IMG/VR virus record: IMGVR_UViG_3300007072_000008
Location: 9,278-73,277 of that record
Direction: 5' to 3' (one strand)
Source of the DNA: a virus
DNA length: 64,000 bases
Part shown: piece by piece, positions 3,116 to 53,647 of the stretch
Position numbering within the stretch: the first letter of the stretch is position 1
How the letters are laid out: every line of letters starts with the position of its first letter
Translations under genes and position numbers: made by a program
The notes under the pieces: generated by a model
Database searches by the model: none
What the model was told of the DNA's origin: nothing
Seen by the model: only the letters and a program-made list of their open reading frames with translations

Positions 3116-3422
3116 TAATTACCTCTTGTTTTTTTGTTTTATTAATCTCAGCGATTATTTCGTTAAATTTATTTTCAGCCTGTTGTGCAAAATTAGAAAA
3201 AGCATCCTCTATAGAAGATGCTTCAATTAAGAAATCTATTGGGATTCTTCCTATTTGACCATTAGGCATAGGAGTGGTAAAAATGGCTGATCCTTCATAC
3301 ACTGTTATAGGAACCCCTTCTTTTAAGGCTAGCTCTGAATCTATAGCAGTATATTTGCTAACTTTACCTAGATTCTCTACGACATATTCTTCAACGGTTC
3401 TAATAACTAATGGTTTTCCCAT
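3108..3422 (-). CDS. conserved hypothetical protein
   Basis: 104-aa ORF in operon; IPIDFLIEASSIEDAFSNF motif. Confidence 0.6.
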   Translation of the reverse strand: MGKPLVIRTVEEYVVENLGKVSKYTAIDSELALKEGVPITVYEGSAIFTTPMPNGQIGRIPIDFLIEASSIEDAFSNFAQQAENKFNEIIAEINKTKKQEVING

Positions 3423-3431
3423 AAGCTCGTC

Positions 3432-3713
3432 TCAGTTTTCTAATATTTTGTACAAATTCGCACCCAACCACTTTAGTTCAGCATTTAAAGCTTTTTTTCT
3501 CGTAGTAAATGGCCCCAATTTAGGACCATTCACCAACTTTAAATCGGCAAACCATTGCACATCGTCTTTAACAATCACAGGTTCTACATAGCTAACTCTC
3601 TTAATTTTATTTTTACCAATCTTTAATAGTGGTTTTAATTCATCATAATATACAAAACGCAAGTCGCCGTTAGGTAGTATAAAAATATTATATACTTTTG
3701 GCATATTATTCAC
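3432..3713 (-). CDS. small conserved protein of the 'RxSxVEP...WFADL..V.GP.LGPF..R..AL.AE..WL' family
   Basis: Full motif present; recalled from Planctomycetota genomes (not searched). Confidence 0.65.
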   Translation of the reverse strand: MNNMPKVYNIFILPNGDLRFVYYDELKPLLKIGKNKIKRVSYVEPVIVKDDVQWFADLKLVNGPKLGPFTTRKKALNAELKWLGANLYKILEN

Positions 3714-4147: not shown

Positions 4148-4783
4148 CTATAAAAAATTCCACTTCCTCTGCAAAATTCCCATATACTTTATAAAATCTC
4201 CCCAACAGTGCCCTCGCTCCTGACATGTTACTGCTTTGTGTATTACATAATTCTCTTTATCAATATTTAACCAATAAGACGGATATGCATTCACAAATAT
4301 TGTTCGACATTCTAAACCGTGTTTCCTTCTGATTTGTGTACTATAATCTTCAACATAACAATGATAATTGTTAAAGTTTATATCATCAAATTTTAAGCCG
4401 TGCTTACGGTTTATTACTGCTACACAAGCATCAACAGTTGTTAAAATTTTAGATTCGTTAGCATTTGCCCATTCATATTTAATGAGTTTAAAATTGTTAT
4501 CGTTAATCGCTCCTTCAACCCCTAATATCCCAAAATTGGGGTACTGATAAATTGTGTGTAATAAAAAATCTATAAAATTAGGACAAAAAGAAACATCTTC
4601 ATGTATAAACATAATTATGTCATTTGAAGCATTATCGATAGTTTGATTATAACTAGTAGCTGGCGGGATAGTATCTGATAAGCTAAGGAATTGATAATTA
4701 TGATTATTAGAATTGTTAAGACTAGGTTCTAAGTAATTAGAAAAGGCCACAGGATTATGGCGTATAGAAGCAATAGTTAACAT
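4148..4783 (-). CDS. glycosyltransferase (GT-A fold, family 2-like)
   Basis: SYNQ..., FIHEDV (DxD-like), GILGVEG, TVDAC, HCYVEDY. Confidence 0.75.
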   Translation of the reverse strand: MLTIASIRHNPVAFSNYLEPSLNNSNNHNYQFLSLSDTIPPATSYNQTIDNASNDIIMFIHEDVSFCPNFIDFLLHTIYQYPNFGILGVEGAINDNNFKLIKYEWANANESKILTTVDACVAVINRKHGLKFDDINFNNYHCYVEDYSTQIRRKHGLECRTIFVNAYPSYWLNIDKENYVIHKAVTCQERGHCWGDFIKYMGILQRKWNFL

Positions 4784-4786
4784 AAA

Positions 4787-4876
4787 CGGAAGCGATAGGA
4801 TTCGAACCTATGGTGCATCTTTATGACACACGGGAGTTTAGCAAACTCCTGCATTAAGCCGCTCTGCCACGCTTCC
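4787..4876 (-). tRNA. trnS: tRNA-Ser(GCT)
   Basis: GGAAGCG/CGCTTCC acceptor, anticodon arm GGAGT-TTGCTAA-ACTCC, long variable arm, GGTTCGAATCC T-arm. Confidence 0.92.
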
Positions 4877-4925
4877 CAATGTTGATGTAATCACTGAATT
4901 AATCAGCGACTGCAACCCTCGGGAA

Positions 4926-5001
4926 TGCTCCCGACCGGAATCGAACCGGCGATCTCTTCCTTGAAAGGGAAGCGATGTGAGCCAACCACATCTGCAGGAG
5001 C
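4926..5001 (-). tRNA. trnE: tRNA-Glu(TTC)
   Basis: anticodon arm CTTCC-CTTTCAA-GGAAG, T-arm GCCGGTTCGATTCCGGT, paired acceptor. Confidence 0.9.
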
Positions 5002-5137
5002 TAGATGCACTAGACTTTTAAATCTAAGGTCTCCAGGTTCGTTTCTTCTCCCTAAATACGACGGACAGAATTCGAACCTACAGTGAGTGTTTTTCACTCG
5101 GTCACTTTGGAGGCAAATTATACTATCGCGTAGAATA

Positions 5138-5211
5138 CTGCCCTGCTAGGATTCGAACCTAGAACCTTGGGATCCAAAGTCCCCTGCGCTAACCGATTGC
5201 GCCACAGGGCA
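5138..5211 (-). tRNA. trnQ: tRNA-Gln(TTG)
   Basis: TGCCCTG/CAGGGCA acceptor, anticodon loop CTTTGGA, GGTTCGAATCC. Confidence 0.92.
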
Positions 5212-5215
5212 ATTA

Positions 5216-5303
5216 GAAGAAGTCAGAGTGCATGATCCTCAGACTGTCTATTAATTAGATCCAATTCGTTTCGAACGAACTGCGGGTTTTCTGCCGCCAA
5301 TTC
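5216..5303 (-). pseudogene. degenerate tRNA-Ser(CGA)-like remnant
   Basis: anticodon arm GTTCG-TTCGAAA-CGAAT followed by a long variable region, but non-canonical T-loop and no paired acceptor. Confidence 0.4.
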
Positions 5304-5326
5304 GTATAACCGTTGCACAGCATAAA

Positions 5327-5397
5327 CTACCCCACAAGGAATCGAACCCCGACTAAAACGTTCAGAGCGTTTCGTGCGACCATTACACTATGAGGCA
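5327..5397 (-). tRNA. trnQ: tRNA-Gln(CTG)
   Basis: anticodon arm AAACG-CTCTGAA-CGTTT, GGTTCGATTCC T-arm. Confidence 0.88.
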
Positions 5398-5406
5398 AAA
5401 GGATTA

Positions 5407-6073
5407 TTAGTATAATCCATTAATATGTAGAACTTTATGACTTACAACAACAGAAGGATTTGCATTACCATTCCAATTTGGGATAAAAAATTCTCTACTA
5501 GTAGCTGGTTCTGTAAGTCGTTGCCAACCTGCTCTGTTTAAAATTTCTTGATATATACGGGAACGAGCATTGTTATGTTTTTTATCCTTATTCCTAAATA
5601 TATGAGATCTGGTAGCATAATAACTAATTTTTATAGGCAACCCATTAATGGACTGAAAAAATTCATACAATTTTGCAACAAGTTGCTCATTCTTTTTGTT
5701 AGCTAAATATTTTTTTCCCACACGACTATAATCACTTACACCTTCTTTATTAGACCATTCTTGCTCTTCACAATTGCTTTCCCAGCCAAATGAAACATCG
5801 CATAACGCAAATGCATTAGAATCATCATATAAAGACAATTCAGTATATAATGCTAAATCAATAATACGACATGCATAAGTTGCATATACCCTTCTACGAA
5901 TGGTATAATCCTCATCGTAATTTACTACCTTAGCATTGTTGAATATCTGTTCAAAACTCTTTATGGCTAAATTAATTGCTTGTACAGCATCAACACCTAA
6001 CTGTCTTGTTGGTAACTGTTTTAATCTTGGAGGTAAAAAAGATATTTTTTTTCCATATTTTAGTTTTATACAT
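5407..6073 (-). CDS. hypothetical protein, probably frameshifted near its 5' end
   Basis: The frame of ORF 5407..5838 stays open upstream (YGKKISFLPPRLKQLP...) to about 6080 without an ATG; the ATG at 6073 joins it if one A is removed from an A-run. Confidence 0.45.
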
Positions 6074-6081
6074 ATTGTTAA

Positions 6082-6474
6082 CTATTCCTTTATAATTTGC
6101 GCATATACTTTATTTGGGGCCTGCTTAAAATACTTATTCAGAGCAGGACATAACCATGCTAGGTGACCTGTATTATCTTTGTACCAATACCCTGTCATAT
6201 CAGATACTTTATTATCCACCAATGTTAAAGCAATGGTTGAACCATCAAATGGATTATTGGAAAAAAGTAGCTTTACTTTTTCATGCCCTCCGGCATACTT
6301 ATCTAAAAGATCATCTGTGCCAGAAACAAGACCTTCCATTTTAAGGTCTCTTAACTCGTCATCAAAATACCAGAATCGTTCACCTTGACTATTAACAACT
6401 TTGTAGGGGTAAATCGTGTAAATCATATATGGAATGTGGTTTACTTTTACCGCGAAAATAGCCTTTTTAAACAA
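6082..6474 (-). CDS. DUF6717-like protein
   Basis: PY...WYFDD...E.LV.G.D..LD...FS..PF.G...GYWY...WLCPAL..YF...P..VY motif; true start probably the ATG near 6426. Confidence 0.7.
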   Translation of the reverse strand: MFKKAIFAVKVNHIPYMIYTIYPYKVVNSQGERFWYFDDELRDLKMEGLVSGTDDLLDKYAGGHEKVKLLFSNNPFDGSTIALTLVDNKVSDMTGYWYKDNTGHLAWLCPALNKYFKQAPNKVYAQIIKE

Positions 6475-6503
6475 TATACTTACGGTTCACCACAGTAAGG
6501 GAA

Positions 6504-6576
6504 TGGGCGATAAGGGATTTGAACCCCTGACCTCTCGGATGTAGACCGAATGCTCTAGCCGCTGAGCTAATCGCCC
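6504..6576 (-). tRNA. trnV: tRNA-Val(TAC)
   Basis: GGGCGAT/ATCGCCC acceptor, TAGCTCAG D-arm, loop TCTACAT. Confidence 0.92.
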
Positions 6577-6579
6577 GGA

Positions 6580-6653
6580 TGGAGACGGTGAGAATCGAAC
6601 TCACAACAGATTGGTTGCAAACCATTCTCGCTACCCTTAGCACATGCGTCCCC
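6580..6653 (-). tRNA. trnA: tRNA-Ala(TGC)
   Basis: loop TTTGCAA; acceptor GGGGACG/CGTCTCC with the G3:U70 alanine identity pair. Confidence 0.88.
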
Positions 6654-6686
6654 GAAAATACTATTAACTTTTGATAGAGCAGTCTA

Positions 6687-6760
6687 TAGCGGCTCTGGGA
6701 CTCGAACCCAGCTTGAAAGCTTATGAGGCTTTCCAGACCACCATGGCCTTGCCAGCCGCA
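6687..6760 (-). tRNA. trnM: tRNA-Met(CAT), initiator-like
   Basis: anticodon arm AAAGC-CTCATAA-GCTTT; unpaired 1:72 position as in initiators, but lacks the three G-C anticodon-stem pairs. Confidence 0.82.
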
Positions 6761-6857
6761 ATCAAATAACAGACAAGTTTTGTTGAGTTAACCATCCAAT
6801 ACTGGTCTGTTATATTCTCCACATACTAACACCCTAAAAACCCTTCTTGTTCACGAT

Positions 6858-7052
6858 TTATTTTTTACTGTTTAAGCTTTTAGATTCTAACAACTCTTTG
6901 GCTAGCTCTTCAAGCTCATCTTCCCATTCATTCATAGCTTTATTATAATCTGAATCTACTTCTTCTGATAATTGTTTTATAGGTCTAAATCTCCATAAAA
7001 TTTGCATAGCATTTAACTTGCTAATTATTTCATCAACCATTTTATCATCCAT
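6858..7052 (-). CDS. hypothetical protein
   Basis: 64-aa ORF with GAGG RBS upstream. Confidence 0.55.
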   Translation of the reverse strand: MDDKMVDEIISKLNAMQILWRFRPIKQLSEEVDSDYNKAMNEWEDELEELAKELLESKSLNSKK

Positions 7053-7080
7053 TGATACCTCTGTTCTTTTTTTACCGCAA

Positions 7081-7335
7081 TCACTCTTCTTTAAAAATAT
7101 TCTCAGTTTGTTCTGGTGTATATTTTCGCCTGTTAATAATCTCTTTTATTTTTCTGGCAATAAAAATATGAGTATATGTATGAATCTTAGAATCCTTTTC
7201 AATTGTTTCTAAATATTCTCTTAACTCCGCTTTTTCCTCTTTAGTTAATTTCTTCTCATTTTCTTTTAAGGAAGATAATGTGGTGGATAAAGCATTATAT
7301 ATCTCTGCCTTTAATGCTTTCCAAGTTCTACCCAT
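7081..7335 (-). CDS. hypothetical protein
   Basis: 84-aa basic helical ORF, co-oriented with neighbours. Confidence 0.55.
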   Translation of the reverse strand: MGRTWKALKAEIYNALSTTLSSLKENEKKLTKEEKAELREYLETIEKDSKIHTYTHIFIARKIKEIINRRKYTPEQTENIFKEE

Positions 7336-7363
7336 ATTATTTACCAGTCGGGTTAGAGTTAGT

Positions 7364-7804
7364 TTACCACCATAGATTCAGAAAATGCTCAGAAAATAAT
7401 TTCAAACCACTTTTGACTTCTTCATATTCTTTGTTACTTAAATCCCATGCTCCTCTGCTAACTAATTCAAATGTGCGAATCATCTTATCAAGTTTGGCAT
7501 TCCAGCTTTTTTCAGTTTCTCCATAAGGAAATCCTTTACACAATTCTTTAAATCTAACCAGTCTTGGATATACAAATTTGGCAATTGTATAATCTAAACT
7601 CCAAGTATCTTGGTCAGTCCAGCCACGCTCTTTCATTTGCCTTTTAAATAAGGCTTTTCTATTTTCTGATTGTTTTTTACAACTTTTTTTCATTAATACC
7701 AAAGTCCTATCATCGCTGTTATAAGCAGACTTGATAATACTACTACCTTTATAACACCAACAGTTACACATGAATAAAAAATCCAATTGGGAATATAAAT
7801 ACAC
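7364..7804 (-). CDS. conserved phage protein (TWSLD...PRL..FK family)
   Basis: DTWSLDYTIAKFVYPRLVRFK...W...LDKMI..FE...GLKLF..HF.NLWW motif; start probably the downstream ATG near 7693. Confidence 0.7.
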   Translation of the reverse strand: MYLYSQLDFLFMCNCWCYKGSSIIKSAYNSDDRTLVLMKKSCKKQSENRKALFKRQMKERGWTDQDTWSLDYTIAKFVYPRLVRFKELCKGFPYGETEKSWNAKLDKMIRTFELVSRGAWDLSNKEYEEVKSGLKLFSEHFLNLWW

Positions 7805-7921
7805 TTACATCCGTAACTATCTTTGCAAGCAACACAATTTCTTGATTCCATGTTTTCTCCTTTTGTAAGAATCACGTTCCATCTACTTCATTTAGCTATA
7901 CAAACCCTTATTAAGAATATA

Positions 7922-8113
7922 TTAAGTTTTTTGCAGACTTTTGGTTTTTTTTATAGCTCTGAAATATGAATTTATAGCTGCTTCTGCCGCTTTAAACTGG
8001 CATCTATAGTCTTTTTCAGAAGTATAAATAGGATCAGTTTTTTTATCAGGTACTACATAAGCCCTGAATCTTACACCAAAAGGTTTAACTAATTTTTCTA
8101 ATTTAATATTCAT
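7922..8113 (-). CDS. hypothetical protein
   Basis: GGAG RBS before MNIKLEK; 3' part of the listed ORF 7922..8212. Confidence 0.5.
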   Translation of the reverse strand: MNIKLEKLVKPFGVRFRAYVVPDKKTDPIYTSEKDYRCQFKAAEAAINSYFRAIKKTKSLQKT

Positions 8114-8212
8114 AATTTTCTCCAAATATAATATAAAATGTCCACAGTAGAAATCGAACCGACAATACTTCTGTGATATGCAATTCGCCATGCGGACGTT
8201 ATTTAAATACAC

Positions 8213-8623
8213 CTATAGGGTTGAACACATATGCTTTTTATTTCCCAATGTTGCATGGAAAGTTTTTCTCAAGCCTACGGGCGGCTGAATATAAAGGCTT
8301 TCATTAGGTAATCCTAACTCTTCCCTTATTTCTTCTAGCCGCTTTGACCATATATCTATCCAATAATAAACTTCACTATTCCTTATTTCATTACTGTATA
8401 TAAAATCTACTATTTCCCCCTCATACTTTCCCCAAAACTCCATTTTAGGCTCTACAATTTCTTTTCTTACTACAGAAATGTGAGCGTCATACATTTGTCT
8501 CTGCAAATAATTTGATATTGATTTTGGCAGTAGTTTTCTGTAATAATTAACAAGATCCTGTTCTATGTCCAGAACAACATTAGTCTTGCCATATCGAAGT
8601 TTTCTTTGTGACTGATAAATCAT
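8213..8623 (-). CDS. 2H phosphoesterase superfamily protein
   Basis: two H-x-(S/T) motifs: AHISVV and FHATLG, about 75 aa apart. Confidence 0.75.
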   Translation of the reverse strand: MIYQSQRKLRYGKTNVVLDIEQDLVNYYRKLLPKSISNYLQRQMYDAHISVVRKEIVEPKMEFWGKYEGEIVDFIYSNEIRNSEVYYWIDIWSKRLEEIREELGLPNESLYIQPPVGLRKTFHATLGNKKHMCSTL

Positions 8624-8626
8624 AAC

Positions 8627-8686
8627 ATCGAACCCACTTGTTTCTGTTTAGAAAACAGACGCCTAATCCAGTCTAGCCACAGGAGC
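8627..8686 (-). pseudogene. truncated tRNA-Arg(TCT)
   Basis: intact 5' acceptor strand, D-arm and arm TCTGT-TTTCTAA-ACAGA; the sequence breaks after GGTTCGAT, 3 nt before the ATG of the 2H gene. Confidence 0.75.
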
Positions 8687-8720
8687 AATGTCTTTCTTTT
8701 TTACCGCAACAAACTTGTAA

Positions 8721-8778
8721 AGCCCAATAACGGAATCGATCTTACCACGATTGCGTGATACCCTTTTACCAATCTGTC
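8721..8778 (-). pseudogene. internally deleted tRNA-Thr(GGT) remnant
   Basis: D-arm-like GGTAAAAGGGTATCACG, loop GTGGTAA, then a jump directly to TCGATTCCG...TGGGCT. Confidence 0.5.
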
Positions 8779-8833
8779 TAAACAAGATGCAGACGGAAAA
8801 CACGCAGATCAGGTATGCAATTACGCACTAACG

Positions 8834-8909
8834 GGTGTGCGACGGGATTCGAACCCGCGAATAACATGAACCACAATCATGCGCGTTAACCAACTTCGCC
8901 ACGCACACC
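8834..8909 (-). tRNA. trnH: tRNA-His(GTG)
   Basis: arm CATGA-TTGTGGT-TCATG; G-1:C73 pair. Confidence 0.93.
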
Positions 8910-9178
8910 AATTATACTTCTTCATTATAACTTTACCTGCAAAGGTTGTTACTACACAATATAATAATCAATCGATCTAACTTTTTAGATTTTTTCTCCC
9001 GGTTTTGTATACAACTAATATTGGCCAAGAATATTACAATATCGCCATATTTTAGGGGATGCTATGCTGATTTTTTTTACGGTAAACAACAGCCCTTTCT
9101 TGCGTTCTGATGCCCATTGAGGTTCAAAGACAATTACCTGTCCACCCTGAAACTGTTTCTGTTTTCTGATCAAACATA

Positions 9179-9250
9179 TCGGGGTGACAGGGATCGAACC
9201 TGCGACTTCAAGTTCCCAAAACTTGCGGACTACCTCTGTCCTACACCCCG
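9179..9250 (-). tRNA. trnP: tRNA-Pro(TGG)
   Basis: CGGGGTG/CACCCCG acceptor, loop TTTGGGA. Confidence 0.92.
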
Positions 9251-9304
9251 AACATTGCAAACAATAACAAACACTTTCACCAGATTAGCATCCCATAATT
9301 CAAG

Positions 9305-9376
9305 CTCGCAGAGCAGGATTCGAACCTGCGACCATTCGGTTAACAGCCGAACGCACTACCGCTGTGCTATCTGCGA
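9305..9376 (-). tRNA. trnN: tRNA-Asn(GTT)
   Basis: arm TTCGG-CTGTTAA-CCGAA, canonical D and T arms. Confidence 0.93.
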
Positions 9377-9377
9377 A

Positions 9378-9450
9378 AGCCAGAGGGGGGACTCGAACCC
9401 CCGGTTACGGGTTTACAAAACCCGCGCTGTAGCCGCTGAGCCACTCTGGC
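9378..9450 (-). tRNA. trnT: tRNA-Thr(TGT)
   Basis: GCCAGAG/CTCTGGC acceptor, arm CGGGT-TTTGTAA-ACCCG. Confidence 0.93.
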
Positions 9451-9558
9451 ATTTCACATTCTAGTGCCTCTTTCATGCTATAATATTTCTTTGATTGAGC
9501 AATTATCTTTTCCGACAAGGTAAATTGCAACAATTTTATTCATAGTAGTTTCCAAACA

Positions 9559-9631
9559 AGACCAGGGTGGGATTCGAACCCACGTATAGTGGATTTGCAA
9601 TCCACTTCCTTAGCCACTCGGACACCTGATC
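9559..9631 (-). tRNA. trnC: tRNA-Cys(GCA)
   Basis: arm GTGGA-TTGCAAA-TCCAC, U73 discriminator. Confidence 0.92.
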
Positions 9632-9637
9632 GTACAA

Positions 9638-9709
9638 TAGGCTTAAGTGGAGTCGAACCACTAATTGTTTCTTATCAGGAAACTGGTATAACCGTTTACC
9701 TATAAGCCT
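9638..9709 (-). tRNA. trnI: tRNA-Ile(GAT)
   Basis: arm GTTTC-CTGATAA-GAAAC, AGGCTTA/TAAGCCT acceptor. Confidence 0.9.
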
Positions 9710-9718
9710 ATGGTAACT

Positions 9719-9737
9719 TATTCACTTGTCAAAGATC
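9719..9737 (-). promoter_or_regulatory. boxA-like antitermination element
   Basis: GGATCTTTGACAAGTGAAT just upstream of the first tRNA resembles rrn boxA (CTTTAACA / CTTTGACA); conserved in the second copy at about 10616-10631. Confidence 0.6.
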
Positions 9738-9739
9738 CT

Positions 9740-9773
9740 AACAAAAAACCCAGACATTTTTTTTTGTCTGGGG
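9740..9773 (-). terminator. intrinsic terminator of a putative attenuator
   Basis: CCCAGACA-A8-TGTCTGGG hairpin followed by TTTTTTGTT on the minus strand. Confidence 0.8.
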
Positions 9774-9801
9774 TAAAAAGCACTTTTATTAATAGTACTC
9801 T

Positions 9802-9867
9802 TCACCCAGACGTAAAATCAGTGTGGGGGTTACATGTTGTTAGCATATTATTAATCGACATACGCAT
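9802..9867 (-). CDS. putative attenuator leader peptide MRMSINNMLTTCNPHTDFTSG
   Basis: 21-codon ORF whose last codons and stop (GTCTGGGTGAAGAGTAC) can pair with the 5' arm of the downstream terminator. Confidence 0.65.
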   Translation of the reverse strand: MRMSINNMLTTCNPHTDFTSG

Positions 9868-10309
9868 ACTATATCCGTTTTTTCTACACACCATTAAAAA
9901 CTCCCTCTGTTTTTTTTTTTTACCGCGATTCATTTTGCATTACCAGTTGTTCACTGGTTTTTCATTCTTATAGTTGATACAAGGTTTTTTAATGATATAT
10001 TATATAAATTTAATTTATATAATCTTCCTTTACATTTGTGATAAAATGCACCAAAGATTTGAACATGCCCTTTTATACAGAACATTTATTCTAAAATAAT
10101 GCCTTTACCAGACAACATTTCATGTATCTCTTTCCTAAGTTCAATCAGTATATTTGTTGTTTTTCATCTAATTCGGAATATTTTACTAAATTCCTCAATT
10201 TATTGTCAATGTTATAAACAACGTTTTTCCACAAAGTCCCATCAAGAGCATCCCTATGTTTTTGCTGCTCTTCTAGTAAATTAAATATCAGTGTTACTTG
10301 CATAAATGC

Positions 10310-10546
10310 TTAACCTTTTACTAAGTTACTTAAGTATATTGTTTTTTCTAGTGTTTTTATTAGTTTTCTTAAATATTTTTCTAGCTCGTACACATGATCA
10401 AAATTACTTTTACCGTGCCAAGCTTCTTCTGAAGCCGATGCAATCAGTGGATCAACTAGCATTTTTAACCGCTTTTCCATCTCTACAAGACTATCTATAG
10501 AAGTTTGATAGACTTCTTTTTTACCATATCCCATATCAGTTTCCAA
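10310..10546 (-). CDS. hypothetical protein
   Basis: 78-aa ORF downstream of the second leader copy. Confidence 0.45.
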   Translation of the reverse strand: METDMGYGKKEVYQTSIDSLVEMEKRLKMLVDPLIASASEEAWHGKSNFDHVYELEKYLRKLIKTLEKTIYLSNLVKG

Positions 10547-10614
10547 TTTAACAAATTTCTTCTCGAAGCAATTAGCATCTTCTATTAAGTCAGTTCTGTT
10601 TCAACTTGATGTAT

Positions 10615-10780
10615 ATTCACTTGTCAAAGAATATCCTAACAAAACCAGACATTTGTGGTGAAAAGTACTTTTATTAATAATACTCTTCACACAGACGTAA
10701 AACCAGTATTAATTGATGTGCATACTATATCTGTTCTTTTTACACACCATTGAAAACCACCTACTTTTTTTACCGCGAAA
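10615..10780 (-). repeat. degenerate duplicate of the 9719-9927 leader region
   Basis: shared blocks ttcacttgtcaaaga, cctaacaaaa..ccagacattt, acttttattaata.tactcttcac.cagacgtaaaa, gcatactatatc, tacacaccatt, taccgcga; terminator arm and leader ORF partly deleted. Confidence 0.85.
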
Positions 10781-10832
10781 CTTTTTCGCGGTAACTATTT
10801 TATTCAGCAGGTCTACATGATATTGTTTTTAA

Positions 10833-11015
10833 TTAATTTTTAAGATTGAACAATTCCAACTGTTTTGGATTTTCATTATCTATCAATACAGTATAACCCA
10901 ATGCAGTGAGAACTTTTTTTAAGGCTGTTATAACACAATCATCACGGTCTATATAACATTGTATAGAGCCTGTGTCAATAGCAATAGAAGATAATGTGGG
11001 GTGTATGTAAATCAT
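10833..11015 (-). CDS. hypothetical small protein
   Basis: MIYIHPTL...QLELFNLKN portion of ORF 10833..11072. Confidence 0.4.
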   Translation of the reverse strand: MIYIHPTLSSIAIDTGSIQCYIDRDDCVITALKKVLTALGYTVLIDNENPKQLELFNLKN

Positions 11016-11097
11016 ATTAATATATATCGGACAAATTACTAAAAACAAATTACTAAAAACAAGGATAACCATGCAAACTTTTTAATATACAGCATAT

Positions 11098-11724
11098 ATG
11101 AATTGGTATAAGTATTCAATGCCGCAGATAAAAGATGTAAAATCTTCTGTAGATCAAATTTGTATGAAAATAAAACAAATTCAAGGAGTAAAAGATGTTT
11201 TTTTATTTGGTTCTTATGCAGCAAATATTAATAACCCATCCGCAATAGTAAAGGATGTTGATATCATTGCAGTTACGGAATTTAACACTGGTGATTTATT
11301 AGCAATTGATAACACAGCTTATTCGGCTTTGAAAATCAGTCCAAAAAATCTGGAAGAAGAGGGTTTTTGTAAAGAGGCTGTCAGTTTTACAAAGCAGTTT
11401 TTGTCATATGGGAACTATAATATAGACCACTGGGCATTATCTGCTAGTAAGCAATTGTTACATTGGGGTGATATGCCAGAGACAAAAGAAGAATGGCAAG
11501 AAATACACATTAAAGCAGAGCAAGAAGCTAATGTCTTAACTGGAATTTCAAAAAATGATCTAAAAACAGCAACTAATGCACAAAAAAAGGAATGGAAAGA
11601 AATATTCGACAAATATATTAATAGATATGTGCAAAATAAAAATAGTGGCTGGTGTTTATCAGAAAACAAATTTAATTCTATAAAAAAAGATATTATTAAA
11701 TGGACGATTTGGCAGAACAACTAG
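11098..11724 (+). CDS. nucleotidyltransferase (Pol beta superfamily, MNT-like) with MNWYK tag
   Basis: VFLFGSYA-x10-DVDII motif. Confidence 0.8.
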   Translation: MNWYKYSMPQIKDVKSSVDQICMKIKQIQGVKDVFLFGSYAANINNPSAIVKDVDIIAVTEFNTGDLLAIDNTAYSALKISPKNLEEEGFCKEAVSFTKQFLSYGNYNIDHWALSASKQLLHWGDMPETKEEWQEIHIKAEQEANVLTGISKNDLKTATNAQKKEWKEIFDKYINRYVQNKNSGWCLSENKFNSIKKDIIKWTIWQNN

Positions 11725-15715: not shown

Positions 15716-16102
15716 ATGAAAATAGTTAAGAAATCAAATGGGAAAAAAGCTCTTAGAATGACACGCAAAGAATGGGTAAGAATCGGACGGCAATTAGGTG
15801 CTATGGGAGAAGACTTAAATACCGTTACTACTCCCAAAACTGATACAGTGAGTACTTCAGTAAACACAGATCTAAAATCGCTTGTCAATAAGTTTCGTGA
15901 TCTGTTAGCAGAACTTGAAGCTGCTGTGAATGAAAAAGATGTAGGCAATGACAATGACGCATTGGATGATGATGCATTGGACGATGATGCATTGGACGAT
16001 GATGCATTGGACGATGATGCATTGGACGATGATGCATTGGACAATGATGCATTGGACGATGATGCGGGTAGTGAAGATGAAGATCTTTTGCCGCCATCCT
16101 AA
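15716..16102 (+). CDS. acidic protein with (DDDAL)n repeat and N-terminal tag
   Basis: GGAG RBS; MTRKEWVRIGRQLG; followed by a terminator. Confidence 0.75.
   Translation: MKIVKKSNGKKALRMTRKEWVRIGRQLGAMGEDLNTVTTPKTDTVSTSVNTDLKSLVNKFRDLLAELEAAVNEKDVGNDNDALDDDALDDDALDDDALDDDALDDDALDNDALDDDAGSEDEDLLPPS
15955..16063 (+). repeat. 15-bp tandem repeat (GATGCATTGGACGAT), about 7 copies
   Basis: direct inspection. Confidence 0.95.
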
Positions 16103-16457: not shown

Positions 16458-16759
16458 TTGTTAAAGACTTGCAAGTGTCAATTTTCCTAGGTTCTACTTT
16501 GATTCATTGATATTGCTACAGTTGTTATAATTTAACATTACACTTATAACTTTAGAAGGAATGCTGATTAACCATACTGCTAAGCTAAAAATTGCTACTA
16601 TAAATATAAATATTAGTATTCCCACAAAAGTTAACCAATTATATATTTCATATTTCATGTTGTGTTCACAATATGAAGTCTTGTGTGGGTGGAGTGTAGC
16701 ACAAAAAAAAACACAATTTCTTGTGCCCTTTTAATGACTATGTGGGAGGAGGTTTTTTT

Positions 16760-17497
16760 TTACCGCGAACTTAATACTTTTAGCATAGTGCGGTTGTGAA
16801 AACCAATTGACTTCTTTGGCTTAAAAAAACTTTCCTGAAAACGTGTTAATTGATCTTTTCCAGTATTGTTAAGCCAGTTTTGAAAAAGATCTTTGTCCTT
16901 TATAGTGTTTTCAGAATTAATATCATTAACTCCTTGCCATGATAGTAAGGCGTCATCTGGTATTGTGAAACGGAACCATCGTAAGACCTCACTAAGATGA
17001 GAAAGGACTTCATCTGCTTTATAATTATGTCCTATAACAATAATGCCTGCTTTCTTGCCTTCGTAGGGGGGGGGTTCTCCAAAAACCGTGCTAAGGTTAT
17101 CAATAACATTCAAACGCTCTATAATGCGTTGTAGCACGGCTGAATGGCTAAACCATCGCACAGGTGTGGCGAAAATAACTATATCAGAATGTTTAATACC
17201 ATCATATATTAATGGCATTTCGTCTTTACCGCCATATTTTTCTGGTTCTTTTATAGAATTATAATGTGCCCAACACCGGTAAGGTCCGGCATCTTTGCTG
17301 CCACATTTTTTCCCATCCTCAGAATAACATCCTTGATTTTCGACGATATGCAGTTTGTTAGCTTCAATTAAATTTATACTATGTCCATTATTTTTGAATT
17401 GTTCTAGTATCTTTTCTAAAATCAGTAAAGATTTCGACGGAGAATCTGTTCCCGAGGGGGTCCAATGGTTAGATGTTGCAATTCCTAATATTTTCAT
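16760..17497 (-). CDS. flavodoxin / NADPH-dependent FMN reductase (iron-sulfur flavoprotein-like)
   Basis: MKILGIATS, GCYS..C..C, DEMPLIYD..SDIVIFATPVRW, IERL, GKKAGII. Confidence 0.85.
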   Translation of the reverse strand: MKILGIATSNHWTPSGTDSPSKSLLILEKILEQFKNNGHSINLIEANKLHIVENQGCYSEDGKKCGSKDAGPYRCWAHYNSIKEPEKYGGKDEMPLIYDGIKHSDIVIFATPVRWFSHSAVLQRIIERLNVIDNLSTVFGEPPPYEGKKAGIIVIGHNYKADEVLSHLSEVLRWFRFTIPDDALLSWQGVNDINSENTIKDKDLFQNWLNNTGKDQLTRFQESFFKPKKSIGFHNRTMLKVLSSR

Positions 17498-35517: not shown

Positions 35518-36759
35518 ATGAGAATTATACAGGATATTGTTAAATTAGCTAATAAATTGGATGCAAATCCTTCTACCAAACAAATGGCTTATGAGCTTGA
35601 TGATATCGCTACTTGCTTGCTAAAAACCGCACAATATATTGGATCTCAAGGGTATTGGGTTAGAAATAGTAGATGTTGGTCCAATTGTTATAGGTATAAA
35701 CGATACAGTTCGCCCACTAAGCCATCTCAAGATATTTGGTTCGAATGCCAAAAAGAATTTCAAGAATCAATAAATAAAGATGGTGGCCAATGGGATAAAT
35801 ATGCGCATATGACTGGCCATACCAAATTGGCATCTGTTGATAATAGTTTAGAAGTAGTTAATAGGATGGAAAACAGTATTCAAACGCATTATGCAATAAT
35901 ACAAAAAGTTGCGGCAGAGAATGTGGCAAAGGTGGCTGACAGTTTAAATGGTTCTTTAAAGACAGAAGCAGAAGAACTGTCTAAAAAAATAGTAGAAGCC
36001 GCTTGGGGGCAGAATAAGTGGTGGAATCCTTCTACTTGGTTTGGAAAAAATAAGAGATTAAAACAATTAGAGCAGTATTTATTAAACCTTGATGCTTTAG
36101 GAAGGCAGAGGCGGTCAGATAAAAACGGTTATGCTATATACTCCCCAGAGTACGAAAAAGCTTGGCAAGATTTTAATTATTATTACTATAAAAATATTAG
36201 AGACATACCACCTGAATTGCGAAATGTAATGGATCAGTTAAAGGAGACGCAAGCAGGACAACGTTTACCCGCTATACAGAAAGCATTACAGTCTGTGAAA
36301 CAATATAATTTACAACAAGCTAGAGGCACAAAAACAGAAACCAACACCAACACCAACACCAACACCAACACCAACACCAACGCCAACGCCAACACCAATA
36401 CCAATACCAACACAACAACAACAGACACAACAGACATAAATTCGTTTATAAAAGTATTTGAACAGTACAAACATGATCCACAATTTCAAAAAGCGATGAA
36501 AAAATTGATTCAATATCAACCAAAAGCGAAGCTGGGGCCATCGAGGACTAATGCTCCAAAGGTTAATTTATTAAGGGATAAACCAACAAAGACCAACAGA
36601 AAAAACAATCGTACACAAAAAAATCCACAGGTTGTTCCAGAAGCAGGGAATTATACAGGTTTCTCAGGTGACTTATCTAATTATCAGAATGTTAAAGCTA
36701 TAGGTACACCAGTAACCCTAGCCAGTAATAGTAAAAAGACAATTTTTAAACTATCATAA
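35518..36759 (+). CDS. head-module protein with (NT)n tract
   Basis: GGAG RBS; IVKLANKLD...LLKTAQY; multiple K-x-A motifs. Confidence 0.75.
   Translation: MRIIQDIVKLANKLDANPSTKQMAYELDDIATCLLKTAQYIGSQGYWVRNSRCWSNCYRYKRYSSPTKPSQDIWFECQKEFQESINKDGGQWDKYAHMTGHTKLASVDNSLEVVNRMENSIQTHYAIIQKVAAENVAKVADSLNGSLKTEAEELSKKIVEAAWGQNKWWNPSTWFGKNKRLKQLEQYLLNLDALGRQRRSDKNGYAIYSPEYEKAWQDFNYYYYKNIRDIPPELRNVMDQLKETQAGQRLPAIQKALQSVKQYNLQQARGTKTETNTNTNTNTNTNTNANANTNTNTNTTTTDTTDINSFIKVFEQYKHDPQFQKAMKKLIQYQPKAKLGPSRTNAPKVNLLRDKPTKTNRKNNRTQKNPQVVPEAGNYTGFSGDLSNYQNVKAIGTPVTLASNSKKTIFKLS
36340..36411 (+). repeat. (ACCAAC)n hexanucleotide microsatellite
   Basis: direct inspection; encodes TNTNTN. Confidence 0.9.
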
Positions 36760-36770
36760 GGAGAAATTAT

Positions 36771-37202
36771 ATGAAGTTTGTTAGCAATTTTATTTCCACT
36801 CAAAGCAATCCGCCTACATTGTCTGATATAATCAAGGCAGCGCAAACGAAGGTTGCTATGTCAAACAAGGTGGTTAAAACAGCCGCTGGGTTAGATAACT
36901 TTGGCGACAAGAAAGCCCCTCCTTTCAAAAAGAAAAAGAAAAAGAAAGAAGAAGAAGAATACATAGAGGTTGAGTGCGAAGAAGAAGAAGAAGAAGAAGA
37001 AGAAGAAGAAGAAGATAAAAAGGAAGCTTGTGGGCGCAAAGGTAAGTCTAAGTGTAAGAAGTCAAAGACTTCAAAACGAGCCAGCAATCGCAAGTGGGTT
37101 GTATTAGCCAATTTAACCAAAGAACAAAAGAACTTCTTGCGCGAAGAATTAGAAAAATTCTGGACTAAGAAGTTTGTTGATGCTTTGTTAGCTGATCAGT
37201 AA
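36771..37202 (+). CDS. head-module protein with poly-K/poly-E tracts
   Basis: AGGAG RBS; NFGDKKAPPFKK; (GAA)n. Confidence 0.75.
   Translation: MKFVSNFISTQSNPPTLSDIIKAAQTKVAMSNKVVKTAAGLDNFGDKKAPPFKKKKKKKEEEEYIEVECEEEEEEEEEEEEDKKEACGRKGKSKCKKSKTSKRASNRKWVVLANLTKEQKNFLREELEKFWTKKFVDALLADQ

Positions 37203-47708: not shown

Positions 47709-53647
<5,939 letters not shown>

What the first reader, a model, noticed from the sequence alone, without database searches (positions are those of the whole stretch)
9638..9927. Leader-peptide attenuator controlling a phage tRNA array, with codons mirroring the tRNA gene order
Seen (minus strand): a 21-codon ORF (9867-9802, MRMSINNMLTTCNPHTDFTSG*) whose last codons and stop (GTCTGGGTGAAGAGTAC) can pair over about 17 bp, including G-U pairs, with GTGCTTTTTACCCCAGAC. 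That segment overlaps the 5' arm of an intrinsic terminator (CCCAGACA-A8-TGTCTGGG-T6). A boxA-like GATCTTTGACAAGT follows, then tRNA-Ile. The leader core ACA ACA TGT AAC CCC CAC ACT (T T C N P H T), with Ile earlier, nearly matches the first genes of the array in order: Ile, Cys, Thr(TGT), Asn, Pro, His, decayed Thr(GGT). ACA and ACT even match the two Thr isoacceptors; CCC would need superwobble by Pro(TGG). Known: in ribosome-mediated attenuation the ribosome position chooses terminator versus antiterminator. Inference: a ribosome reaching the stop codon blocks the antiterminator so transcription stops, while stalling earlier (e.g. host anticodon nucleases or uncharged tRNAs) allows read-through. 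The phage would then switch on its tRNAs only when translation fails.
Basis: partly seen in the sequence, partly recalled or inferred. Interest (0 to 1): 0.88.

Follow-up and report, generated by a model that had tools for sequence, protein, structure and literature searches.

The report
Leader-peptide switch gating phage tRNA genes
A giant phage places a tiny test gene, spelled largely in the codons its own tRNA genes read, plus a transcription stop signal and a copy of the bacterial ribosomal-RNA "keep going" signal in front of its tRNA genes, so it probably makes these tRNAs only when ribosomes read those codons slowly.

Summary
The sequence features are real: a short ORF with a Shine-Dalgarno site, a 17-18 bp hairpin covering its stop codon, an overlapping intrinsic terminator, a boxA, then tRNA-Ile heading 13 tRNA genes. 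Corrections: the ORF more likely starts 27 nt upstream (30 codons); no decayed or second Thr tRNA was found; gene-order colinearity is not significant, only composition is.

The core reading, a ribosome-mediated attenuator sensing the tRNAs the array supplies, is my best explanation (0.62). The instance alone is modest (p 0.002-0.05). The support comes from unrelated huge phages reached through the boxA motif, not through leaders. Their arrays also sit behind promoter, short ORF and terminator, with ORF codons matching the downstream tRNAs (27 heads, diagonal above all 100,000 permutations). One homologous pair keeps both alternative helices by compensating changes, and a predicted Leu-rich leader was found before a Leu array.

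A paralogous copy upstream of protein genes lacks exactly the 9-codon block and the switch arm. No homologue of this element exists in the collections, and there is no RNA data.

The boxA 17-mer is identical to rrn leader and spacer boxA of many bacteria.

This scan has noted the same class and boxA-headed arrays before on other DNA. My literature searches found no published account.

The parts
9915..9927 (-). CGCGGTAAAAAAA motif, about 20 nt upstream of the leader start; candidate phage promoter-associated signal
   Evidence: 9 matches (<=2 mismatches) in the window against 2.2 expected; 0 of 100 shuffles reach 9. Six lie on the minus strand upstream of ORF starts. Also present in copy B at 10777-10765. 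Function is inferred.
9901..9907 (-). Shine-Dalgarno-like GAGGGAG, 6 nt before ATG 9894
   Evidence: Direct reading. The equivalent GTAGGTGG precedes the ATG of copy B.
9802..9894 (-). Leader ORF, 30 codons plus TGA (MVCRKNGYSMRMSINNMLTTCNPHTDFTSG).
   Evidence: Codons cognate to the six downstream tRNAs: 11 of 29, p=0.013 (30-codon); 9 of 20, p=0.0067 (21-codon).
9820..9855 (-). Regulatory codon block (I N N M L T T C N P H T). 9849-9823 is the 27-nt (9-codon) block present in copy A and absent from copy B.
   Evidence: Alignment A1. The 9 A-specific codons hold 6 cognate to Ile/Cys/Thr/Asn/Pro/His tRNAs under strict wobble (background 0.188, p=0.0022). All 6 isotypes of the first block occur in the leader (P=0.057).
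9795..9811 (-). Segment 1: 5' arm of the long hairpin (antiterminator). It spans the last codons, the stop codon and 7 nt (9801-9795) beyond it.
9766..9783 (-). Segment 2: 3' arm of the long hairpin. Its last 7 nt (9772-9766) belong to the 8-nt 5' arm of the terminator (9772-9765).
   Evidence: The inner 12 pairs are conserved in copy B: 9 identical, 3 kept through one-sided changes, 0 broken. The outer 6 pairs exist only in copy A.
9743..9772 (-). Intrinsic terminator: CCCAGACA, A8 loop, TGTCTGGG, T6
   Evidence: Terminator scan; -12.9 kcal/mol. At equilibrium its stem pairs form with probability 0.84-0.88 even with segment 1 free.
9719..9735 (-). rrn-type boxA, TCTTTGACAAGTGAATA
   Evidence: Exact 17-mer. 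Of 120 bacterial loci holding it, 28 have a 16S and 11 a 23S 5' end within 700 nt downstream on the same strand (also Rfam). 13 of 77 IMG/VR sites have a same-strand tRNA within 300 nt downstream.
4787..9710 (-). Regulated unit: 13 tRNA genes with interspersed small ORFs. Order: Ile, Cys, Thr, Asn, Pro, His, then Met, Ala, Val, then Gln, Gln, Glu, Ser.
   Evidence: ARAGORN, Rfam, ORFs.
10600..10794 (-). Paralogous copy B of the module, upstream of protein ORFs (10546-10310 and 10303-10145). Order: hairpin, CGCGGTAAAAAAA, SD, 13-codon ORF (10750-10709), conserved hairpin, weak U-run, boxA (10630-10614). It lacks the 9-codon block and the duplicated stem arm.
   Evidence: families D9, D10, D13; 68% identity, E 6e-23.

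Best explanation
The stretch 9927-9711 (minus strand) is the leader of the phage's tRNA operon. It appears to combine two controls in series.

(1) A ribosome-mediated attenuator. A short ORF (most likely 30 codons from ATG 9894) carries a block of codons (I N N M L T T C N P H T) read by the tRNAs encoded just downstream.
- If a ribosome runs through to the UGA, it covers segment 1 (9811-9795). Segment 2 is then free to form the terminator with 9756-9749, and transcription stops at the T-run.
- If the ribosome stalls in the codon block because one of those tRNAs is scarce or damaged, segment 1 pairs with segment 2. The terminator's 5' arm is sequestered and RNA polymerase reads on into tRNA-Ile.

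(2) Eight nucleotides after the T-run the transcript carries an rrn-type boxA. This would load the host NusB/NusE-NusA-NusG complex, so that polymerases which pass the attenuator transcribe the long, largely untranslated 5-kb array without Rho-dependent loss.

The net effect would be supply-on-demand for the phage's own tRNAs: feedback, or a response to host tRNA depletion.

Shown: the sequence parts, the alternative pairings, the codon enrichment, the boxA identity and the recurrence of the design in other phages. Inferred: translation of the leader, kinetic switching and Nus loading.
For: Instance.
- The geometry fits. There is a strong SD; the regulatory codons end 8 nt before segment 1 (9820 against 9811); the stop codon lies inside segment 1; and the 5' arm of the terminator is wholly contained in the long hairpin's 3' arm region.
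- tRNA-Ile starts 32 nt after the T-run, with no room for a sigma-70-type promoter, so array expression needs terminator read-through.
- Codon match to the six downstream tRNAs: 9 of 20, p=0.0067 (21-codon ORF); 11 of 29, p=0.013 (30-codon ORF). This head ranks 5th of 52 array heads that have an ORF, 64 heads examined (p=2.8e-3).
- Natural control. Paralog B sits before protein genes and shares the SD, the start, the inner hairpin (12 pairs: 9 same, 3 compensated on one side, 0 broken) and boxA. It lacks exactly a 27-nt in-frame block of 9 codons, 6 of them cognate (p=0.0022), and the 10 nt that create the segment 2 / segment 3 competition.

Class. The loci were ascertained by boxA, not by leaders.
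- 4 of 52 heads have p<1e-3. Swapped-array controls average 0.41, and 0 of 300 replicates reach 4. Antisense controls give 0 of 48 at p<1e-2.
- With 27 objectively chosen heads, the own-array diagonal is 36.6. Permutations average 16.0 (sd 3.1, maximum 33.4), and 0 of 100,000 reach it.
- Examples: L078 MKQNLSSSLSCLYLSLSNRALTLQG before Cys, Leu x4, Tyr, Ser x4. L013 is an Ala/Thr/Asp-rich leader before Ala x3, Cys, Asp x2, Thr x3 (p=4e-7; 5.7e-7 with nested starts). L048 is a Thr/Gly-rich leader before Gly x2, Thr (p=5e-6).
- A canonical terminator follows the leader in 8 of 9 cases. In those 8, its 5' arm pairs with the 3' part of the ORF before the 3' arm is made.
- L050 and L082 are homologous leaders (78% identity). 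They keep both helices through matched changes in segments 1, 2 and 3.
- Prospective check: the 7-tRNA Leu array of L207 has a promoter, the leader MKNASLLSLSLLLLS and a terminator.

boxA.
- Exact identity to the motif upstream of 16S (28) or 23S (11) in 120 bacterial loci (Rfam).
- 13 of 77 viral sites have a same-strand tRNA within 300 nt downstream.
- The order terminator, about 8 nt, boxA, first tRNA is also seen in L050 and L078.
Against: - No homologue of this element was found, so there is no conservation or covariation test for this instance. Searches: phage records; IMG/VR patterns; neighbouring proteins; metagenomes (whose only hits were the L050 phage).
- The one paralog (B) does not keep the ORF beyond about 10 codons. 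It has a 2-nt frame change and stops early, and its stop-to-hairpin geometry differs. B could equally mean that the scaffold works without a leader peptide.
- Instance-level statistics are modest and partly post hoc. The 43-codon ORF gives p=0.085. All 13 tRNAs give p=0.05-0.1. Isotype roster 6 of 6 has P=0.057. 10 of 328 short ORFs of the contig match the order statistic as well.
- CCC, ACT and CTA are not cognate under strict wobble.
- At equilibrium the terminator forms at 0.84-0.88 probability even with segment 1 free. The hairpin can shed its outer pairs and stack beside a 6-7 bp terminator, so any switch must be kinetic.
- The start codon is ambiguous: 9933, 9894, 9867 or 9861.
- The boxA of copy B lies 870 nt upstream on the same strand. 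It could already modify polymerases that then ignore this terminator.
- The class is not universal. 0 of 13 heads in the cultured phages S-CRM01 and Breeniome reach p<0.01.
Confidence: 0.62

Rival explanations
1. Plain punctuation. The hairpin plus T-run is a leaky, unregulated intrinsic terminator ending an upstream transcription unit, and the short ORF is incidental or an ordinary micro-gene. tRNA expression comes from constitutive partial read-through, made processive by boxA. No ribosome sensing is involved.
For: - The terminator forms at equilibrium regardless of segment 1.
- Copy B shares the scaffold without the codon block and sits before protein genes.
- Instance statistics are only p about 0.002-0.09.
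- Short ORFs are abundant in this AT-rich DNA: 134 ORFs of 20 aa or more in 9 kb.
Against: - It does not explain why the A-specific 27-nt insertion is in frame and made of 6 of 9 cognate codons.
- It does not explain why the stop codon sits inside the arm that competes with the terminator.
- It does not explain why unrelated phages show the same ORF-terminator design with array-matched codons.
Confidence: 0.2
2. The duplicated 200-nt module is a phage regulatory cassette with another primary function. It could be a promoter-proximal pause or processing hairpin, or a small non-coding RNA that ends at the terminator. It would have been copied to two places, with the ORF untranslated in both.
For: - Two copies share nucleotide-level conservation of 80-89% in blocks.
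- The hairpin is conserved with one-sided compensations.
- Both copies fold better than shuffles (z -2.9 and -4.4).
- The CGCGGTAAAAAAA motif is shared with other gene starts.
Against: - No Rfam family matches: best non-tRNA hits have E>=0.0025 and lie far below gathering scores.
- The SD and ATG are conserved in both copies.
- This reading gives no role to the A-specific codon block or to the duplicated stem arm.
Confidence: 0.1
3. The ORF encodes a functional 30-43-aa micro-protein with its own terminator, unrelated to tRNA control.
For: A strong SD and a terminator directly after the ORF. Phage tRNA regions often hold small ORFs (recalled for T5-like phages).
Against: - The paralog is frameshifted after 10 codons.
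- The peptide has no hydrophobic or other recognisable pattern.
- The stop codon lies within a conserved hairpin.
Confidence: 0.05

Closest known systems
Multivalent leader-peptide attenuators of amino-acid operons (thr leader with Thr+Ile codons; ilvGMEDA leader with Ile/Leu/Val; also trp, his, leu, pheA). Recalled textbook knowledge; related papers seen only as search listings.
   Same: A short translated ORF whose codons report the supply of the operon's end product. An intrinsic terminator with a competing antiterminator whose formation depends on where the ribosome sits. More than one kind of codon is sensed in one leader.
   Different: The regulated genes are tRNA genes, not biosynthetic enzymes, so the sensor reads the product itself (the decoding capacity of specific isoacceptors). 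The roster is up to 6-10 different isotypes. The element is viral. Here only three segments are evident, so an untranslated leader would favour read-through rather than termination.
rrn operon boxA and the Nus-factor antitermination complex (NusB, NusE/S10, NusA, NusG, SuhB). Abstract starts seen for PMC10250234, PMC4807359 and PMC6614797.
   Same: The 17-mer is identical to the motif 54-487 nt upstream of 16S and 102-324 nt upstream of 23S in bacterial genomes. It lies on the sense strand ahead of a long, largely untranslated RNA operon, preceded by a hairpin.
   Different: It is in a phage, ahead of tRNA genes, and placed immediately after a terminator rather than after a promoter. The host and its own boxA are unknown, and no binding was tested.
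T-box riboswitches (recalled)
   Same: A leader RNA senses tRNA status and switches terminator against antiterminator.
   Different: A T-box binds uncharged tRNA directly, has no ORF, and controls aminoacyl-tRNA synthetase and amino-acid genes. No T-box or other Rfam cis-regulator matched here.
Anabaena sp. PCC 7120 trn operon, a long tRNA array induced under translational stress (PMC8421152, passages read; PMC10272220, abstract start only)
   Same: An accessory tRNA array that is silent by default and switched on when translation is impaired.
   Different: Control there is at the promoter, through direct repeats over the -10 box and start site and a repressor (TrcR). The paper's text has no occurrence of 'attenuat' or 'terminator'. 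It is bacterial, not phage.

Membership tests
Ribosome-mediated (leader-peptide) transcription attenuator | Short ORF with a ribosome-binding site in the leader of the regulated operon | tested here: met
   ATG 9894 preceded by GAGGGAG at 6 nt; ORF 9894-9802. The start is ambiguous (also 9933, 9867, 9861).
Ribosome-mediated (leader-peptide) transcription attenuator | Regulatory codons that correspond to the operon's product | tested here: met
   9 of 20 (p=0.0067) or 11 of 29 (p=0.013) codons cognate to the six downstream tRNAs. The A-specific block gives 6 of 9 (p=0.0022). 6 of 6 isotypes are present (P=0.057). Modest for the instance, strong for the class.
Ribosome-mediated (leader-peptide) transcription attenuator | Intrinsic terminator between the leader ORF and the first structural gene | tested here: met
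   8-bp G+C-rich stem plus T6 at 9772-9743, -12.9 kcal/mol; 32 nt before tRNA-Ile.
Ribosome-mediated (leader-peptide) transcription attenuator | Mutually exclusive antiterminator whose formation depends on ribosome position | tested here: inconclusive
   The pairing 9811-9795 / 9783-9766 covers the terminator's 5' arm and includes the stop codon. At equilibrium, however, a shortened hairpin coexists with a 6-7 bp terminator (probability 0.84-0.88). Kinetic behaviour cannot be computed here.
Ribosome-mediated (leader-peptide) transcription attenuator | Conservation of the ORF and compensatory changes of both helices in homologues | tested here: inconclusive
   No homologue of this element was found. 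Paralog B keeps the inner hairpin but not the ORF or the switch. Met for the analogous pair L050/L082.
Ribosome-mediated (leader-peptide) transcription attenuator | Read-through depends on leader translation and on supply of the cognate tRNA | not testable with these tools
   No RNA run lists this DNA, and the phage is uncultured.
rrn-type boxA (Nus-factor antitermination site) | Sequence match to boxA as found in rrn leaders and spacers | tested here: met
   The exact 17-mer lies upstream of 16S in 28 and of 23S in 11 of 120 bacterial loci; 31 sites are not judgeable. Rfam confirms rRNA in 3 of 10 loci checked.
rrn-type boxA (Nus-factor antitermination site) | Sense-strand position early in a long non-coding transcription unit | tested here: met
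   9735-9719, 8 nt before tRNA-Ile (9710), heading a 5-kb array. The same motif lies within 300 nt upstream of a same-strand tRNA at 13 of 77 viral sites.
rrn-type boxA (Nus-factor antitermination site) | Binding of NusB/NusE and Nus-dependent read-through; match to the host's own rrn boxA | not testable with these tools
   The host is unknown and there is no biochemical test. A leader-trailer helix like that of pre-rRNA was sought and not found beyond shuffles (6 of 12 shuffles as good).
T-box riboswitch or other curated cis-regulatory RNA | Match to an Rfam covariance model | tested here: not met
   cmscan of 9500-11100 at E<=10 gives only the two tRNAs above gathering score. Other hits are far below threshold.

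The most novel reading that the evidence does not exclude
This locus belongs to a widespread, unpublished class of viral 'tRNA supply sensors'. Roster-type leader peptides sample the very isoacceptors encoded downstream and gate each tRNA block by attenuation. Here the sensor is wired in series with a host-mimicking rrn boxA, so polymerases that pass it become Nus-modified and termination-resistant. The paralogous copy B would show how such a sensor is built: a 9-codon roster block is inserted and one stem arm is duplicated in a generic hairpin-boxA leader. Functionally, the phage would detect tRNA depletion or cleavage by host defences and answer with its own tRNAs.
Probability: 0.5. Interest if true: 0.85.

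Novelty: new variant of a known kind. Interest (0 to 1): 0.78.

Why it matters
Why phages carry tRNA genes, and when they express them, is an old open question. It is now tied to host defences that cleave or deplete tRNAs (listings: PMC10264068, PMC11555353, PMC11464382).

A leader peptide written in the codons of the downstream tRNAs would be a direct, codon-specific gauge of decoding capacity. It would turn the array into a demand-driven system. That gives a concrete, testable mechanism through start-codon, codon-swap and stem mutants under tRNA depletion.

The exact rrn boxA behind the terminator further suggests that phages borrow the host's rRNA transcription machinery for tRNA arrays.

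Both features are simple sequence signatures. They could be used to annotate array operons and to infer which tRNAs a phage 'worries' about. My searches found no published description. This scan's own notes report the same class on other genomes.

Tried and rejected
1. Homologues of the element.
- blastn against phage records found nothing.
- Two IUPAC patterns built from copies A and B found nothing in IMG/VR.
- Two neighbouring proteins used as probes found no relatives.
- Two metagenome scans gave 0 hits and 2 hits. Both hits are the L050 phage again.
- So there is no comparative test for this instance.

2. Expression. The run search listed one DNA run (a sediment metagenome, possibly the source) and no RNA holder.

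3. Order colinearity of codons and tRNA genes was rejected as not significant.

4. 'Decayed Thr(GGT)' was not found.

5. TTGACA inside boxA as a -35 box for the array was rejected. The -10 would fall inside tRNA-Ile, and no hexamer fits at 16-18 nt (reading). In some other phages the same 17-mer does look like a -35 box (TTGACA, 17 nt, TATGAT), so the 76 viral hits are a mixture.

6. My first reading was that the equilibrium dominance of the terminator and the ORF-less paralog B argue against attenuation. I dropped it as decisive. In all 8 of the 9 leaders for which a terminator was found (WIN included; L013 had none), the MFE through the end of the terminator stem also contains the terminator. 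B also lacks exactly the sensor parts.

7. A leader-trailer helix, a lead from the scan's notes, was tested. The best duplex of 9742-9711 with downstream RNA (9636-3000) is -20.6 kcal/mol, and 6 of 12 shuffled leaders do as well. Not supported here.

8. Cultured phages S-CRM01 and Breeniome have no significant leaders: 0 of 13 heads at p<0.01. T5 and T4 were not examined.

9. The first cross-matrix was biased, because leaders were chosen against their own array. It was replaced by the unbiased version.

10. Protein-level tools (homology search, structure, complex prediction) were not used on the 30-aa peptide, which is too short to be informative.

11. Paper supplements are closed and none was needed.
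Full report
SETTING. The window is bases 9278-73277 of a 73.3-kb IMG/VR virus record that CheckV rates 17% complete. It is therefore a fragment of a phage of several hundred kb. On the minus strand it carries 13 tRNA genes. They run Ile(gat) 9710-9637, Cys, Thr(tgt), Asn, Pro(tgg), His(gtg) down to 8833. After protein ORFs come Met, Ala, Val, and then Gln, Gln, Glu, Ser down to 4787. One public run holds the DNA, a sediment metagenome that is possibly its source, and no RNA run is listed.

THE OBSERVATION.
- The ORF runs from 9867 to 9802.
- The 17-nt arm at 9811-9795 spans the last codons and the UGA.
- Its partner lies at 9783-9766.
- The terminator is CCCAGACA, A8, TGTCTGGG, T6 at 9772-9743.
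- The boxA-like TCTTTGACAAGTGAATA lies at 9735-9719.
- tRNA-Ile begins at 9710.
The long hairpin is worth -24.4 and the terminator -12.9 kcal/mol. The region folds better than shuffles (z -2.9).

Three details needed correction.
- An in-frame ATG at 9894 has a far better Shine-Dalgarno site (GAGGGAG, 6 nt upstream) and gives a 30-codon ORF. This start is the one conserved in the paralog described below.
- ARAGORN and an Rfam search at E<=1 find no decayed or second Thr tRNA.
- The claimed colinearity of codon order with gene order is not significant once composition is fixed. P is 0.14-0.21 for the longest common subsequence and about 0.065 for the contiguous N-P-H.

A PARALOG IN THE SAME GENOME. 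The whole module of about 200 nt occurs twice (families D9, D10, D13, 68% identity, E 6e-23). Copy B (10794-10600) lies upstream of two small protein ORFs, not of tRNAs.

The alignment shows several shared parts:
- a shared CGCGGTAAAAAAA motif;
- a shared SD and ATG with the first 10 codons;
- a shared inner hairpin;
- a shared boxA 17-mer.
In the inner hairpin 12 pairs align: 9 are identical, 3 are kept through one-sided changes and none is broken.

Copy B lacks two things.
- It lacks a 27-nt in-frame block, the nine codons N M L T T C N P H.
- It lacks 10 nt that in copy A supply the outer 3' arm of the hairpin, which is also the terminator's 5' arm (its 3' arm, TGTCTGG, is present in B).
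B also has a 2-nt frame change, so its ORF stops after 13 codons.

This cuts both ways. The ORF is not conserved in the only relative available. Yet what A has and B lacks is precisely the proposed sensor. Of the nine A-specific codons, six are cognate under strict wobble to the six tRNAs that follow (background 0.188, p=0.0022). Eight of the nine amino acids have a tRNA in the array.

boxA. The 17-mer turned out to be much more than 'boxA-like'.
- In 28 of the 120 a 16S rRNA 5' end, and in 11 a 23S 5' end, follows within 700 nt on the same strand. 31 sites have too little sequence stored to judge. Rfam confirmed the rRNAs in 3 of 10 loci checked.
- In IMG/VR the 17-mer occurs at 77 sites in 76 loci. 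13 of 77 have a same-strand tRNA within 300 nt downstream and 8 within 60 nt, several in phages of 370-500 kb.
- In the window, L050 and L078 the order is terminator, about 8 nt, boxA, first tRNA.
- Some other viral hits look like ordinary -35 boxes, so the viral set is mixed.
The inference is that the RNA recruits host Nus factors, so that the largely untranslated array is transcribed processively. Nus biology is recalled, with abstract starts seen. A pre-rRNA-like leader-trailer helix, suggested by earlier notes of this scan, was not found here.

THE TURN: ANALOGOUS LEADERS IN UNRELATED PHAGES. The loci fetched by boxA gave an unplanned test, because they were not chosen for their leaders. 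Upstream of the first tRNA of several arrays sits a promoter-like site, a short ORF and a canonical terminator, and the ORF is written in the amino acids of the array.
- L078: MKQNLSSSLSCLYLSLSNRALTLQG precedes Cys, Leu(caa), Tyr, Leu(tag), Leu(taa), Leu(aag), Ser(gct), Ser(cga), Ser(tga), Ser(gga). The 13 consecutive L/S/C/Y codons between them touch every isoacceptor.
- L050: MNNKIVHQVIWHVITFRGKGC precedes Trp x2, Val, His, Ile x2, Val, Met.
- L039: MLRYQWKSNNSFAPPVREVASM precedes Asn, Phe, Trp, Tyr, Asn, Gln, Asn and more.
- L013: an Ala/Thr/Asp-rich 40-mer precedes Ala x3, Cys, Asp x2, Thr x3.
- L048: a Thr/Gly-rich leader precedes Gly x2, Thr.

STATISTICS. I defined 64 array heads in 11 sources. 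A head is a tRNA with no same-strand tRNA within 140 nt upstream. For each head I scored every ATG ORF of 12-60 codons in the 300 nt upstream. The score is a binomial test on codons cognate to tRNAs within 2.5 kb downstream, against the codon usage of long ORFs of the same locus.
- Of 52 heads with an ORF, 4 reach p<1e-3 and 2 reach p<1e-4.
- With arrays swapped between loci, the mean is 0.41 heads at p<1e-3 (maximum 3). None of 300 replicates reaches 4.
- The antisense strand of the same upstream regions gives 0 of 48 at p<1e-2.
- For 27 heads chosen by an objective rule, ORF selection was identical for own and foreign arrays. The own-array diagonal sums to 36.6. Permutations average 16.0 (sd 3.1, maximum 33.4 in 100,000).
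- The window's head ranks 5th of 52 (p=2.8e-3).

STRUCTURE AND OTHER CHECKS ON THE CLASS.
- A canonical terminator follows the leader in 8 of 9 cases.
- In those 8, the fold of the RNA made before the terminator's 3' arm pairs the terminator's 5' arm with the 3' part of the ORF.
- L050 and L082 carry homologous leaders (78% identity). Thirty nucleotides encoding VHQVIWHVIT are identical. Matched changes in all three segments preserve both the antiterminator and the terminator.
- As a prospective check, I predicted a Leu-rich leader before the seven-Leu array that appeared in L207. I found a TTGACA, 17 nt, TAGAGT promoter, the leader MKNASLLSLSLLLLS using TTG, TTA, CTA and CTC, and a terminator.
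- The design is not universal. S-CRM01 and Breeniome show nothing: 0 of 13 heads at p<0.01.

BACK TO THE WINDOW. With the class established, the local anatomy reads as a three-segment attenuator.
- The codon block 9855-9820 ends 8 nt before segment 1. A ribosome stalled there should therefore leave segment 1 free (footprint sizes recalled).
- A ribosome at the UGA (9804-9802) would cover segment 1.
- Only 32 nt separate the T-run from tRNA-Ile, and no sigma-70-type promoter fits there. The array must be reached through the terminator.

The weak points are real.
- Equilibrium folding lets a shortened hairpin coexist with a 6-7 bp terminator at 0.84-0.88 probability, so switching would have to be kinetic. 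The other class members behave alike in MFE folds.
- The instance statistics are modest: p 0.0067-0.085 depending on the start, 6 of 6 isotypes at P=0.057.
- CCC, ACT and CTA need expanded wobble or a tRNA not on this fragment.
- The boxA of copy B, 870 nt upstream, might let some polymerases ignore this terminator.
I put the attenuator-plus-boxA reading at 0.62. Plain leaky punctuation gets 0.2, another function of the duplicated cassette 0.1, and a micro-protein 0.05.

WHAT IS KNOWN.
- Eight full-text searches (listings and abstract starts only) returned no paper describing leader-peptide attenuation of tRNA genes, or boxA in huge-phage tRNA arrays.
- The nearest printed case is the stress-induced trn array of Anabaena. 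It is controlled by promoter repeats and a repressor. Its text holds no 'attenuat' or 'terminator' (passages read; PMC10272220 seen as an abstract start only).
- The closest mechanistic relatives are the multivalent attenuators of thr and ilvGMEDA (recalled).
- This scan's own notes, read only after my analysis, report the same class and boxA-headed arrays on other genomes. They are unchecked AI notes and I did not count them as evidence.

VERDICT. The core interpretation is supported as the best explanation, and its embellishments (gene order, second Thr tRNA) are not. Relative to print this is a new variant of a known kind. This instance is statistically weaker than its analogues. It is nonetheless informative, because it carries a natural internal control (copy B) and the serial terminator-boxA arrangement.

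Noticed in passing
window 6442-6454, 7067-7079, 8696-8708, 9915-9927, 10765-10777, 16755-16767 (minus strand): A recurrent motif, (C/T)GCGGTAAAAAA, lies 15-25 nt upstream of the SD/ATG of minus-strand ORFs. There are 9 matches against 2.2 expected, and 0 of 100 shuffles reach 9. At 10794-10770 it is the 3' half of a perfect hairpin.
   Followed up: partly
window 8213-8623 (minus strand): A 136-aa ORF inside the tRNA array matches Pfam 2H-SAK (2H phosphoesterase, RNA-repair type) at 26.9 bits, just under the 27-bit cut-off. An RNA-end-healing enzyme beside the tRNAs would fit a response to tRNA damage.
   Followed up: partly
window 6082-6474 and 4148-4783 (minus strand): Other ORFs interspersed in or next to the array: a DUF6717 protein (62.8 bits) and a family-2-like glycosyltransferase (36.3 bits).
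   Followed up: no
L207 (oriented) about 3400-3610; same phage as L050/L206: A seven-gene Leu tRNA array has its own promoter (TTGACA, 17 nt, TAGAGT), the leader MKNASLLSLSLLLLS and a terminator. One phage thus carries several isotype-sorted arrays, each with a matched leader.
   Followed up: partly
L124 6863-6879 and L136 4302-4318 (Firmicutes genomes): The same 17-mer lies about 140 nt upstream of a pemK RNA motif (RF02913, 36.6 bits) in Eubacterium album and Faecalibacillus faecis. In Tagaea and Azospirillum genomes it follows TTGACA-type promoters away from rRNA. boxA therefore seems to be used in non-rRNA operons too.
   Followed up: no
L039 6192-6266; L059 8776-8846; L078 4718-4789; L205 13362-13434: Phage arrays hold tRNAs with 8-nt anticodon loops (anticodons tttt and ttca) and amber-reading tRNAs (cta, called Pyl or 'other'). 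These are possible frameshift or stop-codon suppressors.
   Followed up: no
window 9478-9540 (minus strand), between tRNA-Cys and tRNA-Thr: A 21-codon ORF (MNKIVAIYLVGKDNCSIKEIL) fills most of the 108-nt spacer between two tRNA genes. Its significance is unknown.
   Followed up: no
window 50269-50551, 52297-52594, 15935-16080, 36315-36428, 36927-37033: Long in-frame low-complexity repeats (runs of GAT/GAA/AAT codons, and CCAACA repeats) lie in large ORFs of the structural region.
   Followed up: no
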